30,784 nt of DNA from a virus. The position numbers and the translations under genes are program-made. A model generated the notes under the pieces. The model saw only the letters and a program-made list of their open reading frames with translations. It made no database searches and was not told the DNA's origin. This document shows positions 4,361 to 28,626 of this stretch, piece after piece. The stretch's first letter is position 1, and the number at the start of each line of letters is the position of its first letter. The stretch covers positions 1 to 30,784 of the IMG/VR virus record IMGVR_UViG_3300045988_133025; one strand, given 5' to 3'.

Positions 4361-5095
4361 TTATTCGTATTTCCACTTTCATTTATAACCAAAACAAGAA
4401 GATCTTTTACCATTACATACATCTGGAATATGAGAACGCTTACTATTAAATGATTTAGCTGCATTCATTATACAATTCCATTCTTTAATAAATTCTCCAT
4501 CTAATGAATACTGCAATACTGGTTTACCATACTTATTAATCATAGCAGCACTGACACTTTTACTAAGTTTTTCTTTGGTAGCATCACTATGATGTTTCCC
4601 TCACATATTTCCCTTCTCTCCTTTTTGAGCTTCAGATATTTTGCGTTTATGTCCCTCAGAAAGTTGTTTACCTATATTATGTATAGGATCAATCCATCTT
4701 TCTGGATGATTCTTCATATATTCTCTCTGCTTTTCTATTCTCTCAAGAGATAACTTAACACCTTTATGTGATTCACTTATCTTTTTTCTAGATTCATCAG
4801 ATACCACTCTATTTAATTGACCTCCAAAATCAATATTATAGCCAAACTCAGAATCATAAGACTTATACTTCTTTATATAGTACTTTTCCCAATTAGTCTC
4901 TAAAGTCTTTAATACCTCTATATTAAAAGATTCTTTACCGTATTTTAATACTGCAGATTTTAGATGAGCATTGCCTCTCTGATGAAGAGACATATGCTCA
5001 CTAAATCTTTGTCTTATATTTCTTATAGTTTGACCTATGTAAACTTTGTTATTTATAGTATTTGTAATTATATAAACGTTCCCAATTCGGTTCAT
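4361..5095 (-). CDS. GIY-YIG homing endonuclease (free-standing), 244 aa
   Basis: N-terminus GNVYIITNTINNKVYIGQT...RF.EH. NUMOD3-like GKHHS..TKEKLS and a C-terminal IENR1-like QYSLDGEFIKEW...CNGKRSSCFGYKWKWKYE appear only when TGA at 4601..4603 and 4379..4381 is read as Trp. Stop is TAA at 4361..4363. Confidence 0.85.
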
Positions 5096-5138
5096 ATGTT
5101 CAGATTATTTTAGTTATAAATTACTGATTATCTATTAT

Positions 5139-6038
5139 TTAAGCTTTTGCACCAAGTACGATCTCATCAGGGAAAGCAACTTGTACACCAGCGTTAAATT
5201 CAATAGCTAATCTAAATTCTCTGAAATCCTGCGAATACCACATTTCGAATTTCTCTTCGTCATTCATCATATCGCAGCCATAGAAGAAGTTCTTGTCAAG
5301 CTGACCAGCAACGATCTTGTCAGTTCCGTTAAGACCATTAACAGCGATTACTTTAACCTGCGAACCAGGAAGCATAATCTCACCGTTAAGATTCTCACCA
5401 CTATAATGGAAGTAGTTCTTAACAACTAACTCCTGGACGAATTTACGGAAGGTATCAGCGCCTACTAAGATAGAAGCACCATCAAGTACTTTCTCAGGAA
5501 TAGCATTATAAACCTTCATAACGTCATCGTAAGCAGAAGTACCAGCAATCGTTACTTCAACAGTACCAACAGCATTTTTTAAGATCTTTAACAGACCATC
5601 GAAATACTTAAGGTTGTTCGTACTAGAAGTAGTATCACCTTGCCAGATAGCGGTTTCAATAGTGGCTTTAACATTCTCAACTACACCACTAATAAAGTCC
5701 TCTTCGAAAGGAAGCGTTTTCTGACCAGCAGCAACGCGAACCTGATACTGAGTCCAATATTTAAGCATAGCTTTGTCGCAATAAGCCATATTAATCTTGA
5801 TATTTCCAGTCGTAAGAACTCGTTGTGAAAGAGTCTGCGTTCCAGCCTCATCCCATCCACAAGTCAGACCATCTCCAAATTCAACATCAGTTGAAAGTAA
5901 GTTAAGAGCAGCTGAAGTTTTAATATCAGTCTGTAAGTTAAATAAACTAGCACTCTTAGCTTTTAATACAGCCTCTTTAATAAGAGGTAATCTACGCTGC
6001 TCAACATAAGCAGTCAAAGAAGTCATTACAGGATTCAT
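5139..6038 (-). CDS. Major capsid protein, 299 aa
   Basis: Intact ORF directly downstream of the protease-scaffold pair (an HEG intervenes). Size and position are typical of an HK97-fold capsid protein. Codons are G/C-richer. There are 4 Trp, all TGG, and no TGA. Confidence 0.7.
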   Translation of the reverse strand: MNPVMTSLTAYVEQRRLPLIKEAVLKAKSASLFNLQTDIKTSAALNLLSTDVEFGDGLTCGWDEAGTQTLSQRVLTTGNIKINMAYCDKAMLKYWTQYQVRVAAGQKTLPFEEDFISGVVENVKATIETAIWQGDTTSSTNNLKYFDGLLKILKNAVGTVEVTIAGTSAYDDVMKVYNAIPEKVLDGASILVGADTFRKFVQELVVKNYFHYSGENLNGEIMLPGSQVKVIAVNGLNGTDKIVAGQLDKNFFYGCDMMNDEEKFEMWYSQDFREFRLAIEFNAGVQVAFPDEIVLGAKA

Positions 6039-6044
6039 ATTTTA

Positions 6045-6554
6045 TTAATTTTGAAATAAATGATTTCTATGTGTTTTTGCCCTACCAGCTAAAACATTAT
6101 CTACACATTTAGGATTATATCCATCTTTCTTTAATTCTTGTCTATTGTAATAGACTTTTACTAAATTTCCATCTAAAGAATAACACTTTATACCTTCGTA
6201 TGATTTACTTCAGGTAACTCCAAGTCTAGCTTTACTGATTGATATTTTAGAGTCTTCTGTATGATGTTTCCCATAAAACGGATTATTAATTCCAGTATGA
6301 TTGTGTCCTTTTCTTTTACCTCCGTTTAATCCTCCAGGTTCTTGATTCATACATAAAGGATCTGTCTTTCAAAGATTGCCAATTCAATATGTATCAACTG
6401 TTCCGTATTTATCGAAATAAGATTTACAAAACCGACCGCTTCCCCTATAAGCTTTGTCATTTTCAGGCTTATATTTAACTGTTCGTTTTCCTATATAATA
6501 TTTTCCAAAATGATTAGGATGAAGGAAGTCGATTCTATAAATATAATGATACAT
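6045..6554 (-). CDS. GIY-YIG homing endonuclease (free-standing), 169 aa
   Basis: There is no ORF here in the standard-code track. With TGA=Trp (6384..6386, 6369..6371, 6210..6212) it reads MYHYIYRIDFL..GKYYIGKR...NPFYGKHHTEDSKISISKA...YSLDGNLVKVY. The ATG overlaps the scaffold TAA (TAATG). Stop is TAA at 6045..6047. Confidence 0.8.
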
Positions 6555-7156
6555 TAACCAATAAAGTTTTTAAGCTTCTTATCTATTTCTGCTATCCCAC
6601 TTATAGGAGCAGTTGTTTTATTTTCAAGTGTTTCCTCTGCTGAAAAAGCAGCACTCATCTTACTCATTTTTTCTACAGTCTTTTCAGTAGCTTCTGATTT
6701 TCCTTCAAGTTCTGCTACCTTCTTAACAAGCTTATCTACAATATCGTAAAGCTCATTAATTTCGCGATGAATAGCGTCGATTGCATCAGTCTCAGTTTCT
6801 TTAACACCGTCTGTTTCAACAGCAGGATCGGCAACTTCCTCAGCTTTTACTTTCTTAGTTCCACAAGCAGCATCAACTTCTGCTTTAGCTGCTTCTTCTG
6901 GATCAACCTCAGCTTTAGGATCAGTAATGGACTCTACTTTACCGTCTTTAACAACAATCGTCTTTCCATCCTCAGTTACATACTCACCATCAGCAGCAGG
7001 TTTGTATTCTCCGTTCTCATCCTGAACATATACATCCATACCAGCGCGTAAGTCTTCATCTGAATCCCAAGTTAAGACTCCATTTGAAGTTTTCAGATCA
7101 CTGAACTTTGCAAGCATTTTAGCCAATTCAAGCTTGATTCTTGTGAATTTGCTCAT
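6554..7156 (-). CDS. Scaffolding protein, 200 aa
   Basis: Acidic, Lys/Glu-rich, coiled-coil-like sequence between the protease and the capsid gene. No TGA. Confidence 0.6.
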   Translation of the reverse strand: MSKFTRIKLELAKMLAKFSDLKTSNGVLTWDSDEDLRAGMDVYVQDENGEYKPAADGEYVTEDGKTIVVKDGKVESITDPKAEVDPEEAAKAEVDAACGTKKVKAEEVADPAVETDGVKETETDAIDAIHREINELYDIVDKLVKKVAELEGKSEATEKTVEKMSKMSAAFSAEETLENKTTAPISGIAEIDKKLKNFIG

Positions 7157-7169
7157 TTAATTAATAATT

Positions 7170-7763
7170 TTAATGTTTAACTCTTTTTATTTTTCTCAAC
7201 ATTTTTTGAATCTCTTTAAGTTCCTCATATTCATCAGATTGTCTTTCTAAAGTAAACAATCCCTCAATAGAGAATCCTTTAAACTTGCCAGCTTTAATTG
7301 CATCCCATATAACAGGATTATTTACTTTATAAGTAGCAAATAATGAACCATCTGGACAATCAGCAAATTCAACTGGATTAATTCCTCTATCTATATCTTT
7401 AATATATAGCTCTTGAAGAATTATTCCAGGAATTACCGAATCTTCCAAATGTTCAATATTTACATCAGTAGTTCTCTTATCATACATCATTTTTTCAGCC
7501 ATTAAACGGAGAGTTTCTTTATCATATTGAATATAATATTCTCCGTTTTTACTATCCCGTCTAAATATAGGTATATCACATACCATTAAACAAGAAGTAA
7601 CTATATGTTTTTCTTCATCCATCGAGAACTTCTGAGATTCCCCAAAAGCAAGCCAATTAACTTGGGTTGCAGGTTTACTGGTCAATGCTACGAACTCTAT
7701 TCCATCACAATCATCAGCAATAATTGCTTGATATAATGGAAGATCATTATACATTTTTTCCAT
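7170..7763 (-). CDS. Prohead protease, XkdF-like, 197 aa
   Basis: DVNIEHLED...GSLFATYKVNNPVIWDAIKAGKFKGFSIEG matches the XkdF-type phage protease pattern. It sits just upstream of the scaffold and capsid genes. No TGA. Confidence 0.6.
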   Translation of the reverse strand: MEKMYNDLPLYQAIIADDCDGIEFVALTSKPATQVNWLAFGESQKFSMDEEKHIVTSCLMVCDIPIFRRDSKNGEYYIQYDKETLRLMAEKMMYDKRTTDVNIEHLEDSVIPGIILQELYIKDIDRGINPVEFADCPDGSLFATYKVNNPVIWDAIKAGKFKGFSIEGLFTLERQSDEYEELKEIQKMLRKIKRVKH

Positions 7764-7842
7764 TTTTTATTAATATATAAGCTATTTTAAAAATGTAATA
7801 TTGTTACAATCTTTTATTTTTGTATATTTATATACTATCAAA

Positions 7843-7938: not shown

Positions 7939-7960
7939 TGTCAGAAATTTTACTCACTTT
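7938..7960. promoter_or_regulatory. Conserved intergenic motif, copy A1 (GTGTCAGAAATTTTACTCACTTT)
   Basis: A more diverged copy. It overlaps the tape-measure stop codon (7959..7961). On the minus strand it directly precedes the 7895..7938 hairpin. Confidence 0.5.
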
Positions 7961-10298
7961 AGAAACTTGCATTTGATTCTGTAACTGCAACTTTAGTTTG
8001 AGCATTAGTAATATCACTCTCAACTACATAACATTTAACAGGTTGATTCAATTCATCAGTCTCTTTATTGCCAAGTAAGTTTCGAGTATATTCTACAGGA
8101 GCAGTATTTAAAGCAGCTGGTGCTGTAGTTCCTGCATCACTTCCAGAACCTCCAGATGAAGGTAATTGTTCATTCTGGATAGCTTTTACATTAGCAATAC
8201 CAGCTATAACAGCAGTGGCAGCAGCAATAGGAGCAAGAATAGGACCTACAAATGGAATACCTACCATAGCTTTATATGCACCTTGAGCAGAACTGATAGT
8301 ATCAATGATAGCTTGAGTAGTAGCTAATGCTTTATAAACTTTAAATGATTTCTCTCTTTGCTTCTCCGATTTTGAATCGTCACTAGCTTCTTGTTTAAAT
8401 ACATTAGCTAAAGCTCCACTTAAAGAAGAAGCTACATTCATAGTAGCTTGAATAGCTTGCTGCTTTTTAGCTTGTCTATCTTTAAATGCTTGCAGATCTG
8501 CTTCTTCTCTTGCATTAGCTGCTTCTGATAAAGCTATATCATTAGCTTCCTGTTGCAATTTAATAGCTTGAGATTGATTAGCATATTCTTGTTCTGTTAT
8601 TAACTTATTGTTATATTGCTCATTTAAGATAGCTTGCTGTTGAGACATTAATTCATTTTCTCTTGTAATCCTATCTTTAGTAAGATTATATAACTGTTCA
8701 TTATAAGCTAATGTGTCTTGATACTGTCTTTGAATATCTACTCCAGATTGATAGAAATCCGTTGAACCAAATTGTTGAACTCTAGTTTCATAACTTCCAG
8801 ATTTACCTGCAGATAATGCAGCTTCTTTATTTGCAAATAATTGAGATTCCCTATCTTGCATTTCTTGTAATGCAGATAATCTATCTTGAAGCTCTGTTTT
8901 ATAAATTTCTCTCTGATCTTCTAAATATTCTTTATTATATGCATCATTTACTTGTTTAACTCTTTTTAAATATTCCTCTTGAGTTAATTCTTTTTTATCA
9001 AGTAGCCATTTTAAATCATTTAATTGTAACTGATAATTTTCTTTTAAAATTAAATTTTCTCTATCTGTTTCACTTAATAAAGTTTTTTCATTATCAGACC
9101 AATATTTATCAATAGCTGCTTTTTTAGTTTTTATTTCATCTTGAAGTTTATCTAAAGCCTGTTTTCTAGCTCTTGCCGCTTCTTCTTCTGCTTTTTTTCT
9201 ATCTTCAAGAATTTTATTTCCTGTTTTTACAAGATTTTGATAATCCCTTAAAGGATTTTTAGTCTCGTCTAAGTATTTAGTGTTATTTGCTAAACTTTCA
9301 GAAACTCTTTGTAATTCTAATCTCGCCTCTTTTACATCCTTCCCAGTTACTTTTTTTAAGAATTGTTGTCTATATAATGTATTTTTAAATAATTCTGAGA
9401 TTTCCTCTTCTGTTTTACCAAATCTTGTACCTATTGATAGTAAATCTTTATCATAAGCAGTTAGGGCATTCCTAAATGCCTTATCTAATTCTATAATATC
9501 TTTCAAAAATGCCTTAACTTTCCTTTCTTCAAACGTTTGAAGAGTAACAGCAGCTCCTATTTTTGATAATTCCTTATATGCATCAGTAGCTTTAATTACA
9601 TTCTCTATTTCATCTTTTAATTCAGGATTTAATTTAATAAGACTATTATATTCCGCCTCTCAAAATGATTCTTTAGCTCGAGTTCTTAAATTCTCATTTC
9701 TTTGTCTAATATTTTCTATTTCATCGCTTGTTAATTTAGCTTCATCTTTTAGTGAAGTAAGTTTATCTATAAGCAAACCAACTGCTACAAGTAGAGCACC
9801 AATTCCTGTTGATACTAATGCTGCCTTAAATCCATTCATAGCAACTGATGTACCAGTTATTGCTACAGATAATGCTTTAAATGATTTTACTCCATTAAGA
9901 ATACCTTCACCTAAACCTTTTAATCCTCCAATTCCTTGAACTATAGCAATTGCTGCTTGCAATTTAACCATAGTTTTTTGAAGATTCTCTGTATCTTTTC
10001 CAAATAAAGTAAATGCTGCACTAACAGCTGAAACTCCTCCAGCTAAACCTCCTGCTACTTGATTGATACTATCAAATGCTTTTACGGCATTTACAGTCTT
10101 ACCTTGCATAGATTCTGTAGCAACACCTAACTTATTTTGAACATTAACAAGTTCTTCAAGTTTTTTAGTATAATCAGTACTACCAATCTCAAGATCTTCC
10201 AGTTCAGCCGTCAAGCCAGCTACTTCTTCTCGTAGCTGCTTGATCGACTTTGAACTAGTTTTAGTATCGATTGATATAACCTTTTTTATTTCTTCCAT
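7959..10298 (-). CDS. Tape measure protein, 779 aa
   Basis: Track pieces 9660..10304 and 7959..9506 are in frame and joined by one TGA (9660..9662); gap 9507..9659 translates without stops. The protein has a long coiled-coil core. It also has Gly/Ala-rich hydrophobic blocks (AGGLAGGVSAVSAAF, IGALLVAVGLL, VGIPFVGPILAPIAAATAVIAGIA), typical of tape measure proteins. The likely start is ATG at 10298; the track's start at 10304 is TTG. Confidence 0.65.
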
Positions 10299-10831
10299 TT
10301 CCAAATATATTTATAAGCAGTTTTACGTTTACCAGAAGCGCATCGTCCTATATTAGTATTAATAAACCCTAAAGATCTTTCAACCTCCATTGTAGATGGT
10401 CATTCTTTAATAAAAGTTCCATTTAAATCGTATTGTAAAATTGGTTTTGAACAAGGACCATTAACAAACATTTCAGAATGTGATTTAGAACTTTTTATTT
10501 TACTTTCTATTGTTCACTTTGTTCCTGATCTTCCTGATTCTCCACCTTCAGATTGATTATATCCTTTATTTGGATTTGTAGTATCGTATACTTTTATTAA
10601 TATCTTTTCTAAAGTACAAGCACAAGCTTTTGGTAAATTATTTCTTATTATTAAATGAGTAAAAGAATCTCATCCATACTTTTGAATTGCATTTCAGAAA
10701 TGGATATTTTGTTTATAGCCAATTCCTTTACTTCATCTCTTTTTAGGACTCTTCTTAGTTATACCTACATATTTTTTATTGTTTATTTTATTTATATGTA
10801 TATAAACGCAATAACATCTTTCTTCAGCCAT
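10286..10831 (-). CDS. GIY-YIG homing endonuclease (free-standing), 181 aa
   Basis: There is no minus-strand ORF here in the track. With five TGA=Trp it reads CVYIHINKINNKKYVGIT..KRWSKG.GY...FWNAIQKYGWDSF.HLII...QYDLNGTFIKEW...GKRKTAYKYIWKWKK. It is a paralogue of 24637..25140 and 27973..28626. Its last 13 nt overlap the tape-measure start. Confidence 0.85.
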
Positions 10832-10832
10832 A

Positions 10833-20175: not shown

Positions 20176-20307
20176 TTAATTATTAGAATACTTCCAAATA
20201 ACCCCATAATTCCAATTTACTTTGTTTCTACAAAACTTAGAAATAGATCCATTATCATATCCTAAGTATCTTTTTATTTCCCTTACAGAATCTCATATTT
20301 TAACCAC
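20176..20307 (-). pseudogene. Stand-alone IENR1-like (HEG C-terminal DNA-binding) mini-ORF or HEG remnant, about 43 codons
   Basis: It reads (V)VKIWDSVREIKRYLGYDNGSISKFCRNKVNWNYGVIWKYSNN*. This has the F.S..EA...LG.....I...C.gK.....G..WKY signature found at the C-termini of the intact HEGs here. The only candidate start is a GTG, it contains one TGA, and it overlaps the end of the sigma region-4 ORF. Confidence 0.3.
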
Positions 20308-20548: not shown

Positions 20549-20840
20549 TTAATCAATCCTCAAATTCGTCATTTTGTTGTTCAAGTGGTTCTTTAACAAT
20601 CTCATAATATTTCTTATAGGTATAGTAATATCTACTTGTTTTACTAAACCAATAATTCTTAAATAATCTTGTAATCCAAAATTTCAATTCATTTTTGCTA
20701 TCAAGCTGATTTAATTTTGGATTTGAATACTCTAGTATTTCTACAAAAATCATTTGAACACAGTCATCATCTGCACCAAATTTTTGCTTAAGTTCCATAA
20801 TAAATGGATAGTACTTTTCTACAATTTCGTTATTACTCAT
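20532..20840 (-). CDS. ECF-type sigma factor, region 2 half only, 102 aa under table 4 (the track's 20553..20840 if TGA terminated)
   Basis: DDDCVQMIFVEILEY...ELKFWITRLFKNYWFSKTSRYY resembles sigma region 2.1-2.4. TGA at 20553..20555 is followed by 6 more sense codons and then TAA at 20532..20534. The region-4 ORF starts in the +1 frame at 20548. Confidence 0.55.
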
Positions 20841-21150
20841 ATGTTCACATATATCCTCCTGCTGTTTTTCGCTGCCCTTTAAGAACCTTTACAATATTTC
20901 TAGATTGTATATTTAGTTCTCTCTCAGCATCTATTGTTGAATCCCATCTTTTAATAACTATTCCATTTAGTAATTGCAGTATTGGTTTCTTATGACTATA
21001 TCCAGCTCGCAGATTATGAGTTCCATAATTATTATTATAATTATAAGTACACCATTCTAAATTACTTACATTATTATTTGATTTATTTTCATCCTTATGA
21101 TTTATACAAGGATAGTTATGCCATCAGTTCCAATTTGGTAGTTTTCAAAA
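20833..21150 (-). pseudogene. 5'-truncated HNH_3-type homing endonuclease without a start codon (about 105 codons)
   Basis: It reads ...HNYPCINHKDENKSNNNVSNLEWCT...KKPILQLLNGIVIKRWDSTIDAERELNIQSRNIVKVLKGQRKTAGGYMWTYE*. This aligns to the C-terminal two-thirds of the intact HNH at 26827..27318. The NUMOD4 N-terminus is missing, and no ATG, GTG or TTG precedes the HNH motif. The frame opens right after TAA at 21151..21153. Confidence 0.5.
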
Positions 21151-21162: not shown

Positions 21163-21600
21163 TTATAGGCTATCATTTGCTATATAATTACTAAATTCTG
21201 TATTTACATCTATCTTAATGGCTTTCTTTAAAGACAACTCTGTTTTTAATGAATAGCCATAAGTTCCTCCAAAATCTGTTGTAGAACAACCATATTTCAT
21301 AGAATCCTTTATAAAGGCTTGTTTTATATCTTTAAATATATATACTCCATCATCAAATATTATTACTAATATAGAATTATTTCTGGATAGTAGATCAAAT
21401 TTTTCTCTATTAATAATAGTTGTTGGATATTTATTAGAATTAAATCTCCTTCTTTTAACTTCTATTATATAATCAATTCCATTCCAATTAAATGTTCCAT
21501 CATATCTGGAATAATTATCTTTACATCATTCTATGTGTATATTAAATTTCTCTTTAAATAGATTCTTTGTAAAGACTAAGCTTCTTATATCTGTTTTCAT
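21163..21600 (-). CDS. PD-(D/E)xK-like nuclease-fold protein, 145 aa
   Basis: No track ORF. With one TGA=Trp it reads MKTDIRSL...HIEWCKDNYSRYDGTFNWNGIDYIIEVKRRRF... (a D...E.K motif). The ATG overlaps the upstream TAA (TAATG). Stop is TAA at 21163..21165. Confidence 0.4.
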
Positions 21601-21936: not shown

Positions 21937-22683
21937 TTAAAATTCAAAAATATCTTTATTGTCGTATTCAATATCTTGTTTTCTGTCTAATCCAAATAAA
22001 CCAGCAAGTATGTCATTATAGATATTATTAGCTTTTGGACTTAAATAAAGCTTATTCTTTACAAAATAAACGGTTTGCTTATATAATTTATTATCAGAGG
22101 GAGTAGAAAGCACATTCTTAATAGTTCTAATATTCTGCTCATTTAAATGCACTACTTCATTCTTAATAAACTCTTCATATCTTATCTGATAACCATCTTC
22201 TACTTTATCTAAGTAAAATCCATACTCTTTTAGCTTATTAAGCTTATTATTTAATAGATTATATGTAATATCTAATTCTTTAGCTATATCCTTCTTATTT
22301 AACTTAATTTTTAAAGTATCATCAAATGCCAAACTTCTAATTCTTAAGGCAAATCCCAATAAATTTAGATCCTTATCAATATTATTAATTACAAAATCTA
22401 ATTTAACCATAAAAAATGTATTTAGTATTGATTTATAGGTATTAGTCTTTATAACATTACCATTATCTTTAATTATAACCTTAGTAGAGCAGTCTAATAA
22501 CTCTGCTTTATAAAGATGACTATTCATCTTTTTAATATAATCTACAGAGCATTTTAAATACTTTGCAAAGTAATCTCTTGTATATACTTTATTTTGAAGC
22601 TGTGTATAAGATTGTAAAGCCATATAATATGCTTCTTTGTCATTCAAATCCTTTACTCGTTTATCAATTTTTAAATAAATCAT
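21937..22683 (-). CDS. Putative replication initiator or winged-helix DNA-binding protein, 248 aa
   Basis: It is the first gene of the leftward unit and abuts the iteron-like repeats and the AT-rich tract. It has two wHTH-like segments (FAKYLKCSVDYIKKMNSHLYKAELL and KKDIAKELDITYNLLNNKLNKLKEYGF). It contains no Trp codons. Confidence 0.35.
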   Translation of the reverse strand: MIYLKIDKRVKDLNDKEAYYMALQSYTQLQNKVYTRDYFAKYLKCSVDYIKKMNSHLYKAELLDCSTKVIIKDNGNVIKTNTYKSILNTFFMVKLDFVINNIDKDLNLLGFALRIRSLAFDDTLKIKLNKKDIAKELDITYNLLNNKLNKLKEYGFYLDKVEDGYQIRYEEFIKNEVVHLNEQNIRTIKNVLSTPSDNKLYKQTVYFVKNKLYLSPKANNIYNDILAGLFGLDRKQDIEYDNKDIFEF

Positions 22684-22730
22684 AGTGCTAAATTTTTTAC
22701 TGGAACGAAAGCTCGAAGAGCTGAGTCCTA

Positions 22731-22764
22731 TAGTATTACTTTTATTATAGTATTACTTTTATTA
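22731..22764. repeat. Perfect tandem 17-mer x2 (TAGTATTACTTTTATTA)
   Basis: Read directly: 22731..22747 equals 22748..22764. Confidence 0.9.
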
Positions 22765-22766
22765 AT

Positions 22767-22802
22767 GGGTACTGAATCGACAGGTCGGTCGGGTACTGAA
22801 TC
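22767..22802. repeat. 12-mer GGGTACTGAATC x2 at 24-nt spacing, flanking GACAGGTCGGTC
   Basis: Read directly: 22767..22778 equals 22791..22802. Confidence 0.9.
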
Positions 22803-22820
22803 AATATATGTCTAAAAATA

Positions 22821-22845
22821 GGGTTTGGGTAGCTAATCCAAACCC
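22821..22845. other. Stable hairpin (GGGTTTGG / CCAAACCC, 9-nt loop) in the control region
   Basis: Read directly. On the minus strand it is followed by TATTTTTAG and on the plus strand by CTTTTAG. It could terminate a short transcript in either direction. Confidence 0.5.
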
Positions 22846-23020
22846 CTTTTAGCACTAATAAAAGTAGTAATTATTTCTAATTACAAGGCAAAGATAACAT
22901 TATTTTTTTAAAAATCAAAATTTTTTACAATAAAAAAATAACTTTTTATTAAAAATATTTTATTAAAAATAATATTACAATTCTTGAATATATTATATAT
23001 TAATAAAAAAGAATAAAATT

Positions 23021-23806
23021 ATGAATTGGAAATCAACAAACATTAAAGGATATTCAGTTAGTGATGAAGGTCAAATAAAGAACGAACTAACAGGAAAAGT
23101 ATTATCTCAGTTTAAGAATAATATGGGGTATTATTTAGTAAGCATACAAGATAAAAAGTATCTTGTACATAGATTAGTAGCAGAGGCGTTTTTAAATAAA
23201 CCTAATAAATGTAATATAGTAGAACATAAAGATGATGATCCCACAAATAATTGTGTAGATAATCTTATGTGAAGTACTCAGAAATTGAATTTAAATAGGC
23301 AAGGAAGGCTTGAAAAGTTAAAAAGGTATTATCAGTCCAATGAATGAAAAGAAGCTAGAAAAAAGGCTTTAGAAACAATGAAAGCAAATGGATTTAAAAA
23401 GACTAAATCAGATAAGCAAAAGGCTAAAGAAGCGGCCAGATTAGATAGAATATCTAAAGAAAGAGAGAATATAAGACCTACTCTCGACCAACAATATGAT
23501 GCGTTTATTAATCCTTTAATTGATTTACTTAAATCTGGATATAGTTTAAAGAGAGCTGCACAATATTTTGGAATAAATGATACTACTGGCATTACTTATT
23601 TTTCTAAAAGATATTATGAAGAAACAGGAATTAAACTTATTACATATAAGATTAAAAAATCGTCGTTTTCAAATGCAGAAAAATTAATGAATAAAATTAA
23701 AGAATTATATAATCAAGGTTTAACTGTAGAGGAAATAAGTGAAGAAGTAAATAGATCAATTAATATTGTTAATAAGTATATAAAACTATGGAAGATTCAT
23801 ATTTAA
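23021..23806 (+). CDS. HNH_3-type homing endonuclease with NUMOD4-like N-terminus and two C-terminal HTH modules, 261 aa
   Basis: Track ORFs 23021..23272 and 23378..23806 are in one frame, joined through TGAs at 23270..23272 and 23345..23347. It reads WKSTNIKGYSVSDEGQIKN...VHRLVAEAFL...VEHKDDDPTNNCVDNLMW, where the conserved NL.W Trp is a TGA. Confidence 0.8.
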
Positions 23807-23958
23807 ATAGAATTGCGGATATTAAAGAAACTGAAGAGTATATTAAAGAATTGGATAAATGAATACTCAAATGTAAAGAAACTACTAAAAGATTTGGTGA
23901 TATTATAGATAAAGTATTAAAAGATAAAGATTATATGTTTATTTCTAAATTTGATTAA
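23788..23958 (+). CDS. Hypothetical small protein, 56 aa
   Basis: The ATG overlaps the end of the HNH gene. It contains one in-frame TGA, ends in TAA, and is tightly packed with the next ORF. Confidence 0.4.
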
Positions 23959-23960
23959 TT

Positions 23961-24101
23961 ATGAATGATTATTTATTTAAAAAACTTGAAGAACTAGAAT
24001 ATAGAATAGTTCAATTAGAAAACCAGAATAAAGGTTTAGTTTGAGAAGAAGTAGAAGAAATGCCAAAACCAGAAATTTCTAATGCAACTTATATTGACTA
24101 A
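23961..24101 (+). CDS. Hypothetical small protein, 46 aa
   Basis: It starts 2 nt after the previous stop. It has a coiled-coil-like N-terminus, one in-frame TGA, and a TAA stop. Confidence 0.4.
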
Positions 24102-24102
24102 T

Positions 24103-24246
24103 ATGAAATATCAAACATATAAAGTATGTATAAATGGAGTGTATTATGTATATGTAATACCAGAGAATAGTAAGTTTTTAGTAGACTTACAAACAGGAGA
24201 TCTAATACCTAAAGAAGATGATAAGTTATTTGAAATAATGGAATAA
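24103..24246 (+). CDS. Hypothetical small protein, 47 aa
   Basis: It starts 1 nt after the previous stop and ends 4 nt before the convergent terminator. Confidence 0.4.
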   Translation: MKYQTYKVCINGVYYVYVIPENSKFLVDLQTGDLIPKEDDKLFEIME

Positions 24247-24250
24247 ATGA

Positions 24251-24278
24251 AAATAGGAGGGCATATACCCTCCTATTT
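24251..24278. terminator. Bidirectional terminator between the convergent plus module and the leftward unit
   Basis: 11-bp perfect stem AAATAGGAGGG / CCCTCCTATTT with a 6-nt loop and T-rich flanks on both strands. The TAG stop of the HNH gene (24273..24275) lies inside the stem. Confidence 0.75.
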
Positions 24279-24596
24279 CTGTTTAAATCTTTGATAGTTG
24301 CTAACCGATGAATGAATAGCTTTATGACAAACTGAACATAATGTTATTAAATCCTCCAAATGTTCCTGCTCATTATAAAGGTTAAGATACGTTCGATGAT
24401 GTACCGATAAAGACCTATTTCCGCCTTCTTGAACACATCAGTTACAAGTTTGGCAGTGATAGTTATCTCGCAATAATATTTGCTCTCTAATGGCCTTAAA
24501 ATCCTTTGATCTTATATATCTTTGGTACTTTAAATATTCTTCACTTCTTACTTTCTTTTTCGTCTTATGAAGCAGTTTACTTGATTTAGAGTCCAT
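24273..24596 (-). CDS. Classical HNH endonuclease, 107 aa (possibly packaging-associated)
   Basis: No track ORF. With one TGA (24438..24440) it reads ...REQILLRDNYHCQTCNWCVQEGGNRSLSVHHRTYLNLYNEQEHLEDLITLCSVCHKAIH, which has the HNH/CxxC pattern. Confidence 0.75.
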
Positions 24597-24636
24597 AAAC
24601 TATACTATTTTTAAATATATTTTCATTTAAATCCTT

Positions 24637-25140
24637 TTACTTTATAGCCTTCTCTAATTGCTTTAGAATAAGAACATCGTCTTTATATGCACCTACTTTT
24701 TTAGCTCTAGGATTATTGCCAAAAGAATTATTTAAATAACTCAAATCTTTACCTTTATGACTATTACTCATCTTTTTTCTAGTCTCTTCTGATGGGTGTC
24801 TTCCAATACATTTGGCTCTAATCTTATCTTTTCTTTCCTGAGTGAATACAATACCTAAGGTGCCGTCACCTCCATCTGTAGCATTATATCCATATTTTGG
24901 ATCTCTAGTATTATATTTATGAATAAGAATTTTTTCTAAAGTCTTGGCACAAGGTTCTGGTAAATTATCTTTAATTATAATATGTTCAAAATTATCCCAG
25001 CCGTATTTTGTTATAGCGTTTCAAAACGGCTGTTTTCTATAACCAAGACCATTTGCTCATCTTATTTCTGGATTCTTACAAGTAATGCCAATATATTTCT
25101 TACCATTAATCTTGTTTAAATGAATATATATACTATACAT
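24637..25140 (-). CDS. GIY-YIG homing endonuclease (free-standing), 167 aa
   Basis: No track ORF. It reads MYSIYIHLNKINGKKYIGIT...IRWANGLGY...FWNAITKYGWDNFEHIII with two TGAs; the KYGW Trp is TGG (24997..24999). The ATG overlaps the endolysin 3' end. Stop is TAA at 24637..24639. Confidence 0.85.
24861..25009. repeat. Dispersed repeat, about 85% identical to 28332..28480 (GIY-YIG core of paralogous HEGs)
   Basis: Aligned by eye over 149 nt. This includes a 33-nt perfect run, ATTATCTTTAATTATAATATGTTCAAAATTATC, at 24964..24996 and 28435..28467. Confidence 0.85.
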
Positions 25141-25582
25141 ATAAATTACCTTTTTTTCTTCGTTGTAGTCCTTTAATACTATATAAAGCAATGTGCACTC
25201 ACTGAGATGTACGACTTTTTTCTATAAAACATTCATCGAAATTTCTATCCTTCAAAAAGTTTAATAGGAATTGATAAAACTCTTCTCTACTTCCAGAGAC
25301 ATTTTGAAGGTCTGCAGCATAACCCGTCATATGTGCAGATGTAACTGAACCATTTACAGCTTTATTAAGTTCATTACATCTATAACCTGAATTCACACTT
25401 ATTGCTGGATTTCCCAACCGATTAACATCACAATACTCTGCCCAATCACTTCTTAATGGATCTAAAAGTTTCTCGACTAACTCTATAAGGTGTTCAGTAA
25501 TCTCTTTATTTGGAGTATTATCTATCTGCTTAATAGAAGCTGTATCAGATCTTGTTAATTCACTAATAGTAAAATATTTCAT
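25133..25582 (-). CDS. Endolysin, M15-family zinc peptidase (L-Ala-D-Glu / D-Ala-D-Ala peptidase type), 149 aa
   Basis: F.ISEL...LLDPLR...ISVNSGYRCNELNKAVNGSVTSAHMTGYAADL matches the SxHxxGxAxD metal-binding motif. The ORF continues through a TGA (25199..25201) into WVHIALY..., restoring the family's conserved C-terminal W-V-H. Stop is TAG at 25133..25135. Confidence 0.75.
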
Positions 25583-25743
25583 TATTTAATAATATCTTTA
25601 AGCATAACATAACGGTAAAATAAATGACATCCTGCACCAAGTGCTATGAGTACTAATGTAATCCAAAATGGAATTACTTTTACCATTAAACATACTAAGA
25701 TTATAATTACTATTGCTATTAAATATTTCATCCAATATTTCAT
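25582..25743 (-). CDS. Holin-like protein, 53 aa, two transmembrane segments
   Basis: It reads MKYWMKYLIAIVIIILVCLMVKVIPFWITLVLIALGAGCHLFYRYVMLKDIIK. Its TAA overlaps the endolysin ATG (TAATG). Confidence 0.5.
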   Translation of the reverse strand: MKYWMKYLIAIVIIILVCLMVKVIPFWITLVLIALGAGCHLFYRYVMLKDIIK

Positions 25744-25746
25744 AAC

Positions 25747-26400: not shown

Positions 26401-26825
26401 TACATACTGTCTTCGCATACTCCAATAATATTGTCTACAGCAAAATCAACTCTAACAAATACTCCAGTACAAATATCTTTGAACTTCTGATAAAATGGAG
26501 TAAAAATTAAAGGATAAGAAATATCAACTTCTGGATAATGGTTATTAAATCGGTTAATTATATTAGTTAAAGCTAATATTCCTGCTGACTGCTCTTCTAG
26601 CTGATTATTATCAGTCTCATCCCATCTTGCTATAAAATAGAGATTTAATGAGTAAGTAATAGTATCTTCATCCATATTAAATGTATTTGGCGTTATATAG
26701 AACACATTATACTCAATAGTTGGAATACTATTAAGTTCATATATATCTTTACTTCCTACAAAATTAATATTAGGTTCTTCAAGAGCACAAGCTTTTAAAT
26801 TTGAAATTATTTCGTAGTATGTCAT
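26400..26825 (-). CDS. Hypothetical (probably virion or neck) protein, 141 aa
   Basis: Intact ORF, tightly packed between an HNH HEG and the lysis cassette. Confidence 0.55.
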   Translation of the reverse strand: MTYYEIISNLKACALEEPNINFVGSKDIYELNSIPTIEYNVFYITPNTFNMDEDTITYSLNLYFIARWDETDNNQLEEQSAGILALTNIINRFNNHYPEVDISYPLIFTPFYQKFKDICTGVFVRVDFAVDNIIGVCEDSM

Positions 26826-26826
26826 A

Positions 26827-27318
26827 TTAAATGTATTTAAAAGTTAATTTATTCTTATATTTTCTACCTGTTTTTAAACAGTAACGTATACTTTTAGAGT
26901 CTATATTTAACCTACGAGCACATTCATTAATAGATGGATATTCTATATCATTACATAATATTTTATGAGATTGCTTATAAATTGAATACCTAGTATTATA
27001 TGAAATAGTACACCATTCTAGATTACATACTCGATCGTCATTCTTTACTTCATTTTTATGATTAACAACTGGATAGTTACTTGTATTAGGTATAAACGCT
27101 TGTGCTACTAGTCTACATATTCTGTAATAGTAATACCTACCATCTTTCATTAAAGTAACTCTCCTATATCCATCCTTATCCATACTAGGCTTTAAAATAC
27201 GCTCATTTACTGGGCAAATACACCCATTCTTACTAAGTCTAGCTCTTGCAACTGATTTAACTTCTCCAGAATCACTCACTTGGTAATAACCTTCAAAGTC
27301 TTTAATATCTTTCCACAT
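26827..27318 (-). CDS. HNH_3-type homing endonuclease with NUMOD4 N-terminus, 163 aa
   Basis: It reads MWKDIKDFEGYYQVSDSGEVKS...GYRRVTL...RLVAQAFIPN...VNHKNEVKNDDRVCNLEWCT. No TGA. Confidence 0.85.
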   Translation of the reverse strand: MWKDIKDFEGYYQVSDSGEVKSVARARLSKNGCICPVNERILKPSMDKDGYRRVTLMKDGRYYYYRICRLVAQAFIPNTSNYPVVNHKNEVKNDDRVCNLEWCTISYNTRYSIYKQSHKILCNDIEYPSINECARRLNIDSKSIRYCLKTGRKYKNKLTFKYI

Positions 27319-27320
27319 AA

Positions 27321-27983
27321 TTACTTTTTCTTATTCTTATTTGAACTTGGAAAATCATATCTAGATCTTAGAGAATTATTATATAGTCCCTTCGAGCGTA
27401 TACCTCCGAGTCACAAACCACAGCTACTCGAACTGTATAAATTAGGATAGAGATCTTTTAACGGCTTATATTCATACAATTCAGGAAAATCATTATAATA
27501 TGTAATTACCCAATTTTGCAATCTTGTTTTAAAGAAATCTGCTTTATCTCTATAATACTTCTTAATAAGATTAACTTGATTAATATCAGAAGTTAAATTT
27601 TTCTCATCATCAGTCCTCATAACCCCAAAATTACTCAGCTTAAAAGAGATAGGAATAGTAATTTCACTTAATACTTGATAAAGTAAATAAGGCTGAATAT
27701 AGTAATCTAGCAATTCTTTATATCTATGATTTTCTGGATCATCTATAGATGTTGGATCATAAATAGGAGGTTCTATTGGATGAACTGGTTTATTTGGATC
27801 TTTCCAATCAATTACTAATTTCTGAATCTTCTCTAAGAGCTTAGTTCCAATTAATGACTGAAGCTCAATATCTTGTGCAAGTTTGATTGCAGACTGAAGA
27901 TATTTACCAGAAACATTATTATCTAAATTAGATTCTGATTTTATATAATCTTCAGATATTAATAGTACGTTTCTATATTCCAT
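27321..27983 (-). CDS. Hypothetical protein, 220 aa; possible head-tail connector or adaptor
   Basis: Track ORF 27411..27983 continues through a TGA (27411..27413) for 29 more codons to TAA at 27321..27323. The N-terminus (LISEDYIKSESNLDNNVSGKYLQSAIKLAQDIELQSLIG) resembles gp6-type connector proteins. Confidence 0.35.
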
Positions 27984-28626
27984 AATAATATTTATAATTT
28001 TTACAGGGTTTATTTTTTCTACAAGATCTAGATATACTAGAAGAATCTACATTATTCTTCTCTCCAGCTTCTTTAGCTGATTTATACTCACAAATAAAAT
28101 TACCATCTAAATCATACTTATATACTTTTTTGCACTGGCGTTCTGAAATTAGTTGTTTTTCTTTATCTGAGAGTTTCATACCTTTATTTCAAGGAGTTTT
28201 GCCTAATCTTGCCTCCCTCATTTTACGCTTGCTTTCATCTGAATGCTGTTTACCATAAAATGAATTATTTTCTCCTGATCTTATAATTCTAAGACTATCT
28301 TTATAATCTTGTGAAAAAGAATATCCACAAGTACCGTCTCCTCCATCAGTTAAATTATACCCATATTTTGGATTTCTAGTATTATACTTATAAATCAGAA
28401 TCTTTTCTAAAGTCTTAGCACAAGCTTCTGGAAGATTATCTTTAATTATAATATGTTCAAAATTATCTCATCCATATTTTTTAATTGCTCTGCTAAAATA
28501 AAGATTATTCTTGTAACCTTGACCTTTAGTTCCCCATCTATTATTTAAAGTAAGTGATGTTATTCCAAAATATAATTTATTATCAGCTGTATTCTTATGG
28601 CAGTACACTGTATAATTATTCAACAT
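27973..28626 (-). CDS. GIY-YIG homing endonuclease (free-standing), 217 aa
   Basis: Only the last 68 aa are in the track. With TGAs at 28468..28470 and about 28188 it reads YTVYCHKNTADNKLYFGIT...NRWGTKGQGY...AIKKYGWDNFEHIII...NSFYGKQHSDESKRKM...YKYDLDGNFICEY. Its 5' end overlaps the portal stop and its 3' end overlaps the next gene's start. Stop is TAG. Confidence 0.85.
28332..28480. repeat. Dispersed repeat partner of 24861..25009
   Basis: See 24861..25009. At the KYG-W codon this copy has TCA on the plus strand (TGA in the gene) where the partner has CCA (TGG). Confidence 0.85.

What the first reader, a model, noticed from the sequence alone, without database searches (positions are those of the whole stretch)
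4361..28626. Exceptional homing-endonuclease load: five GIY-YIG, two intact HNH_3 and two remnants in 30.7 kb
Free-standing GIY-YIG genes:
- 4361..5095
- 6045..6554
- 10286..10831
- 24637..25140
- 27973..28626

HNH_3/NUMOD4-type genes:
- 26827..27318
- 23021..23806 (plus strand)

Remnants:
- a truncated HNH_3 at 20833..21150
- an IENR1-like mini-ORF at 20176..20307

From my coordinates these total about 4.7 kb, roughly 15% of the genome. A separate classical HNH lies at 24273..24596.

The HEGs sit beside the most conserved genes. The capsid gene is flanked on both sides, and others abut the portal, tape measure and endolysin genes. This is the expected pattern for intron-less homing. They use TGA=Trp themselves, so they circulate within a table-4 gene pool. 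Most of them are invisible under standard-code annotation.
Basis: partly seen in the sequence, partly recalled or inferred. Interest (0 to 1): 0.75.

Follow-up and report, generated by a model that had tools for sequence, protein, structure and literature searches.

The report
Phage genome crowded with homing endonucleases
This complete 30.7-kb phage genome, which reads TGA as tryptophan, devotes about one sixth of its DNA to ten selfish, mobile nuclease genes (several already decaying) that come and go between otherwise conserved genes in related phages, a known phenomenon seen here at unusually high density.

Summary
All ten ORFs exist at the stated coordinates under table 4. Pfam or PHROG profiles support nine as GIY-YIG, HNH_3 or HNH nucleases, and the mini-ORF only weakly. 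The nine listed elements total 4,677 bp (15.2%), or 16.3% with the classical HNH.

The window is a complete circular genome of 30,729 bp. Forty-six related IMG/VR contigs settle the interpretation. At every HEG position some relatives have the flanking genes abutting (gap -18 to 43 bp), while others carry a 0.45-0.85 kb insert encoding a GIY-YIG or HNH_3 ORF. At least 16 intergenic sites are occupied somewhere in the family. HEG load ranges from 1 to 8 ORFs per near-complete relative, and this genome has the most (10).

HEG presence is linked to a divergent allele of only the adjacent 200 nt or less of the neighbouring gene. The capsid gene is a foreign allele bracketed exactly by two HEGs.

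Corrections:
- 6045..6554 lacks the catalytic-Glu segment.
- 24637..25140 has lost its C-terminal HTH.
- 4361..5095 carries an 11-aa deletion.
- The whole family is HEG-rich.

This is a dense new example of intronless homing, not a new mechanism.

The parts
4361..5095 (-). GIY1: free-standing GIY-YIG homing endonuclease gene (GIY-YIG + 2 NUMOD3 + NUMOD1) between the phrog_19091 structural gene and the capsid gene.
   Evidence: Domains from Pfam. The junction is empty (about 25-43 bp) in 34 of 36 relatives. It is filled in contig 175865 (95% nt) and holds a remnant in 105798. The window copy lacks 11 aa relative to the 175865 copy. The identical gene occurs in independent samples.
5139..6038 (-). 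Major capsid protein gene, the 'cargo' of a small HEG island bracketed by GIY1 and GIY2.
   Evidence: It is 97% nt identical to the 175865/105798/046576/082853 lineage but 80% to 140557. The genes just outside the two HEGs are 90-99% identical to 140557 and 77-82% to 175865. nr names homologues 'Major capsid protein'.
6045..6554 (-). GIY2: Seg-like GIY-YIG-family HEG, probably inactive, with an in-frame 20-aa deletion that removes the catalytic-Glu region.
   Evidence: Pfam gives NUMOD3 only. It matches phrog_314 'homing endonuclease' at E=3e-9. Alignment with the intact copies in 134023 and 080512 shows the deletion of 'YRKTIIELNASKEENAEREA'. The junction is empty (16-28 bp) in 30 of 36 relatives.
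10286..10831 (-). GIY3: GIY-YIG HEG between the 1145-aa tail protein gene and the tape measure gene. It overlaps the tape measure start by 19 nt.
   Evidence: Pfam GIY-YIG 32.4 bits and phrog_314/7168. No relative carries a HEG at this junction: the only HEG ORF assigned to TMP|t1145 in the family is the window's. 26 of 35 junctions show a -1 to +1 bp gap; the larger values belong to relatives whose divergent tape measure gene was only partly matched. All 9 relatives in which both flanks matched are empty. The catalytic domain is 54-60% aa identical to GIY4 and GIY5.
20176..20307 (-). Remnant: the C-terminal NUMOD1-type HTH of an HNH_3 HEG, with about 430 bp of the gene deleted.
   Evidence: It is 76% aa identical to the C-terminus of the 175-190-aa HNH_3 genes at the same o110|HTH82 site in relatives. 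The gap at this site is 92-138 bp here against 515-565 bp in intact alleles and -16 bp in empty ones. Weak phrog_20162 hit.
20833..21150 (-). HNH_3 pseudogene: an I-HmuI-like HEG with a 151-bp frameshifting internal deletion.
   Evidence: Pfam I-HmuI_NUMOD-like and HNH_3. The DNA alignment with the intact 158-aa copies in 065179 and 175865 is otherwise almost identical. The site is empty in 5 relatives and filled in 18.
23021..23806 (+). HNH3plus: NUMOD4/HNH_3 nuclease with a C-terminal HTH_23. It is the first gene of the plus-strand early block and part of an alternative early module together with orf248 (21937..22683).
   Evidence: Domains from Pfam and phrog_59/959 HNH endonuclease. It is present only in 137034 and 101844. 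These three genomes lack the 572-aa helicase-like gene F0 found in 29 relatives. Its C-terminal domain is 37% identical (E=2e-7) to that of the T5orf172 gene at the equivalent position in relatives.
24273..24596 (-). Classical HNH (PF01844) gene at the end of the late operon, followed by a terminator-like hairpin. It is a variable cassette that alternates with a GIY-YIG gene downstream of the endolysin.
   Evidence: Pfam HNH 24.6 bits. It is present in about 15 of 47 contigs. Relatives carry either this gene or a GIY-YIG gene next to the endolysin; only the window has both. Hairpin at 24250-24279.
24637..25140 (-). GIY4: GIY-YIG HEG immediately downstream of the endolysin gene. It is C-terminally truncated and has lost its HTH DNA-binding domain where the HNH cassette abuts.
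   Evidence: Pfam GIY-YIG and partial NUMOD3. Alignment with the intact 196-203-aa copies (137034, 100074 and others) shows the loss of about 35 C-terminal residues. Against 137034, window 24286-24667 replaces 114 bp.
26827..27318 (-). HNH3b: intact I-HmuI-like HEG (NUMOD4 + HNH_3 + NUMOD-like HTH) between orf141 and the DUF6712 gene. It is the only HEG without in-frame TGA.
   Evidence: Domains from Pfam. 1U3E alignment at E=7e-14 with the 'NHK' His and 'NLEW' Asn conserved. The junction is a 4-8 bp gap in 29 of 31 relatives. The identical protein sits at the same site in 8 contigs from 4 or more samples.
27973..28626 (-). GIY5: GIY-YIG HEG (2 NUMOD3 + NUMOD1) between the portal gene and the DUF6712 gene, overlapping both by 11 nt.
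   Evidence: Pfam and phrog_314 at E=1e-31. The site is filled in 23 relatives by at least 4 distinct GIY-YIG lineages and empty (a -7 to +1 overlap) in about 12.
28616..28830 (-). 3' end of the portal gene: the allele class linked to presence or absence of the GIY5-site HEG. It is the inferred target/immunity and co-conversion segment.
   Evidence: Between-class identity is 0.67-0.71 in the last 200 nt or so, against 0.79-0.86 within classes. The rest of the gene shows no class difference.

Best explanation
The window is the complete circular genome of an uncultivated tailed phage that reads TGA as Trp. It carries ten free-standing homing-endonuclease-type genes or gene remnants at nine intergenic sites.

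These genes are selfish mobile elements. They spread among co-infecting relatives by intronless homing, and three steps of that process are inferred here, not shown:
1. The nuclease cuts a HEG-less allele in or near the neighbouring conserved gene.
2. The break is repaired from the HEG-carrying genome.
3. The HEG is copied in together with a short stretch of flanking sequence that is itself resistant to cleavage.

Several things are shown:
- Every HEG site is polymorphic for presence or absence in the phage population.
- Inserts occupy precise intergenic positions.
- HEG presence is linked to a distinct allele of only the adjacent 200 nt or less.
- HEGs sit exactly at mosaic breakpoints. The capsid gene is a foreign allele bracketed by two HEGs.
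- Copies decay after invasion. In this genome roughly half are damaged: one has lost the catalytic-Glu segment, one has lost its HTH, one has a 151-bp frameshifting deletion, one is a C-terminal stub, and one has an 11-aa deletion of unknown effect.
- Nuclease heads (GIY-YIG, HNH_3, and T5orf172 in relatives) are shuffled onto related DNA-binding tails.

The high load therefore reflects repeated invasion of a densely recombining phage population. It does not reflect any requirement of the phage, since two relatives of about 29.3 kb carry no GIY-YIG or HNH_3 gene. One of these (140557) is circular and complete.
For: Domains. Profile hits support the nuclease assignments.

Presence/absence.
- blastn coverage of core genes is about 30 contigs. 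Coverage of individual HEGs ranges from 0-1 contigs (GIY3, GIY1, GIY2, HNH3plus, HNH3b) to 17-18 (the HNH_3 remnant, GIY5).
- Gap sizes between conserved flanking genes are bimodal at every site, -18 to 43 bp against about 450-830 bp.
- All inserts encode GIY-YIG or NUMOD4/HNH_3 ORFs.
- At least 16 sites are occupied in the family, including 6 that are empty in the window.
- Two relatives of about 29.3 kb carry no GIY-YIG or HNH_3 gene. 140557 is complete and circular (55-bp terminal repeat); 090152 has no terminal repeat.

Linked flank alleles. Divergence between HEG+ and HEG- classes is confined to the portal 3' end, the o102 5' end and the scaffold 5' end.

Breakpoints at HEGs. Identity to the two backbone lineages switches exactly at GIY1 and GIY2. 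The alignment to HEG-poor 140557 is interrupted at every HEG.

Decay.

Domain shuffling.

Not intron-borne.

Not an assembly artefact. The same arrangements occur in independent samples.

Literature. These are the genomic signatures used to call HEGs in ICP1 and T4 (PMC10448857, PMC2988022).
Against: - No cleavage, homing or co-infection data exist; the phage and its host are uncultured.
- The target sites are inferred only from class-linked flank divergence. Recombination hot spots or linkage unrelated to cleavage could in principle produce the same pattern.
- Some members could have host-beneficial or domesticated roles. HNH3plus travels with an alternative early module, and the classical HNH sits at the operon end.
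- Metagenome assemblies of mixed strains can create chimeras. One relative, the 148-kb contig 175865, clearly is one.
- The census covers only 46 IMG/VR contigs out of thousands of relatives.
Confidence: 0.85

Rival explanations
1. The nuclease genes are retained mainly as weapons in phage-phage competition, or as beneficial drivers of module exchange, and are not purely selfish passengers. They would act by marker exclusion or by cutting the genomes of co-infecting relatives. The high load would then be selected.
For: - HEGs bracket the capsid allele and border the alternative early module, like the 'HEG islands' proposed to benefit their cargo (PMC10448857).
- Marker exclusion by phage HEGs is documented in T4 and Skunavirus (PMC2988022, PMC12724721).
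- The family-wide median load is high, at about 9%.
Against: - Two relatives of about 29.3 kb carry none of the GIY-YIG or HNH_3 genes.
- About half of the copies in this genome are damaged. That fits neutral decay after fixation better than maintenance by selection.
- This explanation is not exclusive of homing; it uses the same mechanism.
Confidence: 0.25
2. The ORFs are fixed, domesticated core genes of this phage, for example an HNH packaging cofactor or nucleases that degrade host DNA. They would resemble homing endonucleases only by descent.
For: - They are tightly packed in the late operon with overlapping start and stop codons, which suggests co-translation with structural genes (coordinates).
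- The classical HNH lies at the end of the late operon.
- HNH proteins assist terminases in some phages (general knowledge).
Against: - Each is absent from most relatives at a clean empty junction.
- The classical HNH is in only about 15 of 47 contigs and alternates with a GIY-YIG gene at the same place.
- Several copies are pseudogenes.
Confidence: 0.03
3. The apparent load and mosaicism are artefacts of metagenome assembly (chimeric contigs from mixed strains) or of over-calling ORFs in AT-rich DNA under table 4.
For: - One relative (175865, 148 kb) is a concatemer or chimera with two different tail-fibre variants.
- AT-rich DNA gives many spurious ORFs.
Against: - The ORFs have significant profile hits.
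- The exact GIY2-MCP-GIY1 arrangement occurs in 5 contigs from independent projects.
- The identical HNH3b occurs at the same site in 8 contigs from 4 or more samples.
- The window closes on itself with a 55-bp overlap.
- TGA<->TGG exchange validates table 4.
Confidence: 0.03

Closest known systems
Free-standing Seg (GIY-YIG) and Mob (HNH) homing endonucleases of phage T4; intronless homing (SegF, SegG, SegB, MobE)
   Same: - N-terminal nuclease with C-terminal NUMOD-type DNA-binding modules.
- Location in intergenic regions between genes conserved in relatives.
- Sporadic distribution.
- Co-conversion of flanking markers.
- Defunct copies present (PMC2988022, PMC2790892).
   Different: - T4: 15 HEGs in 169 kb, stated as 11% of coding potential. 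Here: 10 ORFs or remnants in 30.7 kb, about 16-17% of the DNA.
- All but one are written in code 4.
- The phage is small, unrelated to T4 and uncultured (TerL below 30% identity to any INPHARED phage).
- No experimental cleavage or homing data.
HEG-rich vibriophage ICP1 and the 'HEG islands' / nucleases at boundaries of genetic exchange (Barth, Dunham & Seed 2023, PMC10448857)
   Same: - Variable presence among close relatives.
- In-frame deletions and frameshifts.
- Placement next to capsid, tape measure, terminase-type genes.
- An essential gene bracketed by HEGs.
- Swapping of nuclease heads and DNA-binding tails, including T5orf172 in relatives.
   Different: - The island here is a single 0.9-kb capsid gene, not more than 10 kb.
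- The dominant classes are classical GIY-YIG and I-HmuI-like HNH_3, not T5orf172 or IPA-HNH.
- Density per kb is several-fold higher.
- The genome is recoded.
I-HmuI-like HNH endonucleases of lactococcal Skunavirus phages (about 30-kb genomes; PMC12724721)
   Same: - Similar genome size.
- I-HmuI-like HNH genes vary in number and insertion site between isolates.
- The HNH genes cluster by insertion location.
   Different: - Skunavirus: 212 intact HNH endonucleases in 89 genomes, about 2.4 per genome, and HNH only.
- Here the median is about 5 and the maximum 10 per genome, mixing GIY-YIG, HNH_3, HNH and (in relatives) T5orf172.
TGA-recoded (code 4) gut phages (Borges et al., bioRxiv 10.1101/2021.08.26.457843)
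   Same: - In-frame TGA read as Trp.
- Low GC.
- An early helicase-like gene in relatives is essentially free of TGA, while many late genes use it.
   Different: - No suppressor tRNA, RF or TrpRS detected.
- The capsid and scaffold genes also avoid TGA.
- The recoding literature read here contains the term 'homing endonuclease' only once, in a passage that was not displayed, so whether it treats HEG load is unknown.

Membership tests
GIY-YIG homing endonucleases (I-TevI / Seg type) | N-terminal GIY-YIG catalytic domain with the conserved Tyr motifs, Arg and catalytic Glu | tested here: met
   PF01541 is above the gathering score for 4361..5095, 10286..10831 and 24637..25140. It scores 19.7 bits, below the cut-off, for 27973..28626, which nevertheless matches phrog_314 at 1e-31. 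I-TevI (1MK0) aligns to GIY1 at E=0.014. NOT met for 6045..6554: there is no PF01541 hit, and the 20 aa carrying the 'ERE' Glu are deleted.
GIY-YIG homing endonucleases (I-TevI / Seg type) | C-terminal modular DNA-binding region (NUMOD3 repeats, NUMOD1/IENR1-type HTH) | tested here: met
   NUMOD3 and/or NUMOD1 are found in GIY1, GIY2, GIY4 and GIY5. GIY3's tail is 44-51% identical to the HTH tails of GIY1 and the HNH_3 remnant. GIY4 has lost the terminal HTH.
GIY-YIG and HNH homing endonucleases | Site-specific cleavage of the HEG-less allele and super-Mendelian inheritance in mixed infection | not testable with these tools
   The phage and host are uncultured. Only population-genomic proxies are available.
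I-HmuI-like HNH_3 homing endonucleases | NUMOD4 N-terminal motif, an HNH_3 beta-beta-alpha-metal core with the catalytic His and Asn, and a C-terminal NUMOD-like HTH | tested here: met
   26827..27318 has NUMOD4 at 57 bits, I-HmuI_NUMOD-like at 28.8 bits and HNH_3 at 20.8 bits. It aligns to 1U3E residues 3-99 at E=7e-14 with 'VVNHK' and 'NLEW' conserved. 23021..23806 has HNH_3 at 31.1 bits and NUMOD4, but its C-terminal domain is HTH_23 instead. 20833..21150 is a frameshifted pseudogene.
Free-standing HEG / intronless homing | The gene lies between, not within, conserved genes. There is no intron or intein. Empty alleles in relatives have the flanking genes adjacent. | tested here: met
   No Rfam family, including group I and II introns, reaches threshold. 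Empty junctions of -18 to 43 bp exist at every site. o220 and the portal gene overlap by 4 nt in HEG-less genomes, so the portal gene is not split.
Free-standing HEG / intronless homing | Co-conversion of flanking sequence; the HEG+ genome carries a divergent (cleavage-resistant) version of the nearby target | tested here: inconclusive
   Class-linked divergence is restricted to 200 nt or less of the adjacent gene at three well-sampled sites, and identity switches at HEG borders. Both fit the model, but cleavage sites are unknown.
HEG island (Barth et al. 2023) | Essential gene(s) bracketed by HEGs, forming a block of high identity shared between otherwise less similar phages | tested here: met
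   The capsid gene lies between GIY1 and GIY2. It is 97% identical to the 175865 lineage while the outer flanks are 77-82% identical to that lineage. The size (0.9 kb) is far below the more than 10 kb of the published examples.
Genetic code 4 (TGA=Trp) | In-frame TGA at positions that are Trp (TGG) in homologues; TGA not used as a stop | tested here: met
   The minus-strand genes have 56 in-frame TGA against 68 TGG, and all their stops are TAA or TAG. At window TGA columns, relatives have TGA 453 times and TGG 278 times, with no Gly codons among the top alternatives.

The most novel reading that the evidence does not exclude
This code-4 phage family may be the most HEG-saturated phage lineage described so far. 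Up to about 17% of a 30-kb genome is HEG DNA, at least 16 of roughly 35 gene junctions serve as homing sites, and three nuclease classes share DNA-binding tails. HEG-mediated gene conversion would then be the dominant engine of its mosaicism. Because the current HEG copies are written in TGA-rich code 4, they would form a largely closed, endemic pool that cannot be expressed outside recoded phages. The genetic code would be acting as a barrier to the spread of selfish elements.
Probability: 0.3. Interest if true: 0.6.

Novelty: new member of a known kind. Interest (0 to 1): 0.45.

Why it matters
Free-standing homing endonucleases are known drivers of phage mosaicism, but well-resolved natural populations are few (T4-likes, ICP1, Skunavirus).

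This family offers a very compact system. Genomes are about 30 kb, thousands of relatives are in public data, and there are at least 16 insertion sites. Intact, decaying and empty alleles occur side by side, so invasion, co-conversion, decay and nuclease/DNA-binding domain shuffling can all be read directly from sequence.

It also carries a practical warning. Under the standard code nine of the ten genes are fragmented, so HEG load in recoded phages is systematically under-annotated.

The bias towards TGA in the HEGs raises a testable question: does a variant genetic code confine selfish elements to a closed pool?

Tried and rejected
1. Portal gene split by GIY5. The portal is short (363 aa) and a 220-aa ORF follows the HEG. 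Rejected: in HEG-less relatives the two genes are separate and overlap by 4 nt, and the downstream ORF is a DUF6712 protein.

2. Intron-encoded HEGs. Rfam gave no hits at gathering thresholds.

3. Host identification.
- No tRNA or suppressor tRNA.
- No megablast match in INPHARED.
- TerL is below 30% identity to any cultured phage.
- No relative in GTDB representative genomes.
- The 148-kb contig 175865 looked like a possible prophage context. It is instead a concatemer or chimera with a second tail-fibre variant upstream of the portal gene.
- The host remains unknown. The M15 endolysin suggests a walled host.

4. PDB sequence search with the capsid protein found nothing. The capsid assignment rests on synteny, a weak PHROG hit and nr names.

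5. The promoter scan was uninformative: fewer sites than in shuffled sequence.

7. The classical HNH as an essential packaging cofactor. Rejected: it is present in only about a third of relatives and alternates with a GIY-YIG gene.

Full report
WHAT THE WINDOW IS

The first and last 55 bases are identical, so the window is a circularly closed assembly of 30,729 bp. A 1,210-aa tail-fibre gene runs across the junction. GC content is about 29%. All genes lie on the minus strand except a short early block around 23.0-24.3 kb.

Table 4 raises the coding content of long ORFs from 6,847 to 10,587 aa. The minus-strand genes contain 56 in-frame TGA codons against 68 TGG, and all of them stop at TAA or TAG. 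In codon alignments with relatives, window TGA columns hold TGA (453) or TGG (278) in the other genomes. TGA is therefore Trp. No tRNA gene is present.

PHROG and Pfam searches identify the following:
- portal, 28616..29707
- large terminase, 17858..19105
- prohead protease, 7170..7763
- scaffold-like protein, 6554..7156
- capsid protein, 5139..6038
- tape measure protein, 7959..10304
- Peptidase_M15_3 endolysin, 25133..25582

Homologues of about 90% identity to the capsid protein are named 'Major capsid protein' in nr. Nothing similar exists among cultured phages: there is no megablast hit, and TerL identity is below 30%.

CHECK OF THE OBSERVATION

All ten coordinate pairs are exact table-4 reading frames. 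Pfam supports the following:
- GIY-YIG for 4361..5095, 10286..10831 and 24637..25140.
- NUMOD3 and NUMOD1 with a sub-threshold GIY-YIG for 27973..28626.
- NUMOD4, HNH_3 and I-HmuI NUMOD-like for 26827..27318.
- HNH_3, NUMOD4 and HTH_23 for 23021..23806.
- I-HmuI NUMOD-like and HNH_3 for 20833..21150.
- HNH for 24273..24596.

26827..27318 aligns to the I-HmuI structure at E=7e-14, with the catalytic His and Asn conserved.

6045..6554 has only a NUMOD3 hit in Pfam. It does belong to phrog_314 'homing endonuclease', matching from the same profile position as the other GIY-YIG genes.

The 43-aa ORF at 20176..20307 has no Pfam hit. It is the C-terminal HTH of an HNH_3 gene that is intact at the same site in relatives.

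The nine listed elements total 4,677 bp (15.2%). With the classical HNH the total is 5,001 bp (16.3%). Nine of the ten are broken by TGA under the standard code.

RELATED GENOMES AND HEG-MINUS ALLELES

Three scans of IMG/VR, with TerL, the capsid protein and the portal protein, returned 46 contigs of the same family. TerL identity is 79-99% in the 33 close relatives found with TerL, and most genomes are 27-34 kb. I merged the overlapping loci into nearly full genomes; eight of them show terminal repeats.

By blastn, core genes of the window are covered by about 30 contigs. Coverage of the HEGs is much lower:
- GIY3: 0
- GIY1, GIY2, HNH3plus and HNH3b: 1 each
- classical HNH: 5
- GIY4: 7
- mini-ORF: 8
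- HNH_3 remnant: 17
- GIY5: 18

Distances between conserved flanking genes are sharply bimodal at each site. Empty alleles have gaps of -18 to 43 bp, and filled alleles about 450-830 bp. Every insert encodes a GIY-YIG or a NUMOD4/HNH_3 ORF.

Six further junctions that are empty in the window are filled in relatives:
- scaffold|protease, in 12-13 genomes
- t1145|t725
- HTH82|o102
- o223|o141
- portal|o130
- o130|o75

At least 16 intergenic sites are therefore used in the family. The same site can hold different lineages or even different nuclease classes. The o220|portal site holds four GIY-YIG lineages. The p19091|capsid site holds an HNH_3 gene on the opposite strand in one distant relative. 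The position downstream of the endolysin holds either a GIY-YIG gene or the classical HNH.

In HEG-less genomes o220 and the portal gene overlap by 4 nt, so my initial idea that GIY5 splits the portal gene is wrong.

HOW EXCEPTIONAL IS THE LOAD

I built HMMs from the family's own HEGs and scanned all table-4 ORFs. Relatives with at least 27 kb of sequence held carry 1-8 HEG ORFs, or 1.2-14.6% of their DNA, with a median of about 5 ORFs and 9%. The window has 10 (16.9% stop-to-stop), the highest count.

Two relatives of about 29.3 kb, 140557 and 090152, have only the classical HNH. 140557 is circular and complete, and it also has a T5orf172 gene.

For comparison:
- T4's 15 HEGs are quoted as 11% of its coding potential in 169 kb (PMC2988022).
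- 89 Skunavirus genomes of similar size carry 212 intact HNH endonucleases (PMC12724721).

The density is therefore high by published standards, but this genome is the top of a continuum in a generally HEG-rich family. Some 32.5-kb relatives in Logan carry many HEGs as well.

EVIDENCE FOR THE MECHANISM

1. Linked flank alleles. At three well-sampled sites, nucleotide identity between HEG+ and HEG- genomes drops only in the 200 nt or less next to the insert. Between-class identity there is 0.60-0.71, against 0.79-0.89 within classes. The segments are the portal 3' end, the o102 5' end and the scaffold 5' end. Elsewhere in the same genes the classes do not differ. This is the pattern expected if the target lies in the neighbouring gene and HEG+ genomes carry a resistant variant that is co-converted with the HEG.

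2. Breakpoints at HEG borders. The capsid gene is 97% identical to the 175865 lineage and 80% to 140557. The genes just outside GIY1 and GIY2 are 90-99% identical to 140557 and 77-82% to 175865. This makes the capsid gene a small 'HEG island' in the sense of PMC10448857. The alignment with HEG-poor 140557 is interrupted at each HEG.

3. Decay.
- GIY2 lacks 20 aa that include the catalytic-Glu region present in the two intact homologues.
- GIY1 lacks 11 aa.
- GIY4 has lost its C-terminal HTH exactly where the HNH cassette abuts it.
- The HNH_3 remnant differs from intact copies almost only by a 151-bp frameshifting deletion.

4. Modularity.
- GIY3, GIY4 and GIY5 share a catalytic domain of 54-60% aa identity. 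GIY4 and GIY5 are 86% identical over 158 nt.
- HTH tails are shared between GIY-YIG and HNH_3 genes at 44-51% identity.
- HNH3plus shares its tail with a T5orf172 gene at the equivalent place in relatives.

5. No intron signal.

6. Reality of the arrangement. The exact GIY2-capsid-GIY1 arrangement and the exact HNH3b protein recur in independent samples.

Cleavage and homing themselves are inferred, not shown.

GENETIC CODE AND THE 'TABLE-4 POOL'

Across the family, the share of Trp codons written as TGA differs widely by gene class:
- classical HNH: 80%
- GIY-YIG: 66%
- HNH_3: 57%
- core genes overall: 34%
- capsid, scaffold and p19091 genes, and the early helicase-like gene of relatives: 0-2%

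Homologues of GIY5 at 62% identity or more occur only on contigs up to about 32 kb, compatible with this family. Below that, identity falls to 51% or less. Two of those distant homologues lie in a standard-code phage and a TAG-recoded phage, in both cases directly upstream of an M15 endolysin gene.

The present copies are therefore confined to code-4 translation, but the lineage is drawn from the general phage HEG pool.

VERDICT

The corrections concern the number of probably active copies and the family-wide context. The finding is a dense, well-documented new instance of free-standing homing endonucleases and HEG-bounded gene exchange in an uncultured recoded phage family. It is not a new kind of system.

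Noticed in passing
window 1-55 and 30730-30784; 30591..30784 + 1..3494 (-): The window is a complete circular assembly: a 55-bp terminal overlap and a unit length of 30,729 bp. A 1,210-aa tail-fibre gene spans the junction. It is hypervariable, and only 1 relative covers 70% or more of it.
   Followed up: yes
whole window and family (e.g. 5139..6038, 6554..7156, 3815..4339 versus the HEGs and 1..3494): TGA usage for Trp is strongly gene-specific. It is about 0-2% in the capsid, scaffold and p19091 genes and in the early helicase-like gene of relatives. It is 34% in core genes overall, 57-80% in HEGs and 83% in the tail fibre. No suppressor tRNA, RF or TrpRS gene is present, so how TGA is decoded, and in which host, is open.
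   Followed up: partly
window 21937..24272; relatives e.g. contig 140557 region between o79 and the endolysin: Early-module swap. 29 relatives carry a plus-strand 572-aa helicase-like gene, often preceded by a T5orf172/MUG113 nuclease gene. The window, 137034 and 101844 lack both and instead carry orf248 (a weak HTH protein, minus strand) plus HNH3plus. How these three genomes replicate is unclear.
   Followed up: partly
window 21163..21600 (-): The conserved 145-aa ORF contains 'IDYIIEVKRRR', which looks like a PD-(D/E)XK nuclease motif. It has no Pfam or PHROG hit. It is a core gene (about 35 relatives), not a mobile one.
   Followed up: no
window 6554..7763 (-): The protease and the scaffold-like protein match the N- and C-terminal halves of a single PHROG (phrog_24921, 349 aa), so they are fused in other phages. 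The 13-bp junction between them is a HEG insertion site in 12-13 relatives (596-608 bp GIY-YIG inserts).
   Followed up: partly
L148 (IMGVR_UViG_3300045988_175865, contig positions 109806-130855) and L020/L036: The 148-kb 'viral' contig is not a prophage context. Upstream of the portal gene lies a second, different tail-fibre variant plus further fibre-like genes. The contig is therefore a concatemer or chimera of related genomes.
   Followed up: partly
L159 8001-10487; L161 8001-10415: Distant GIY5 homologues (43-45% identity) occur in a 160-kb standard-code phage and a TAG-recoded phage. Each sits immediately upstream of a Peptidase_M15 endolysin gene, echoing GIY4 next to the M15 endolysin here. 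This may be a recurrent association between this HEG type and endolysin genes.
   Followed up: no
window 24250..24279 (-): A strong terminator-like hairpin (13 bp stem followed by a T run) lies directly after the classical HNH gene. It probably marks the end of the long minus-strand late operon.
   Followed up: no
window 25133..25582 (-): The endolysin is a Peptidase_M15_3 enzyme, which implies a host with peptidoglycan. That is at odds with the wall-less Mollicutes, the best-known code-4 bacteria. No relative of the phage was found in GTDB representative genomes.
   Followed up: partly
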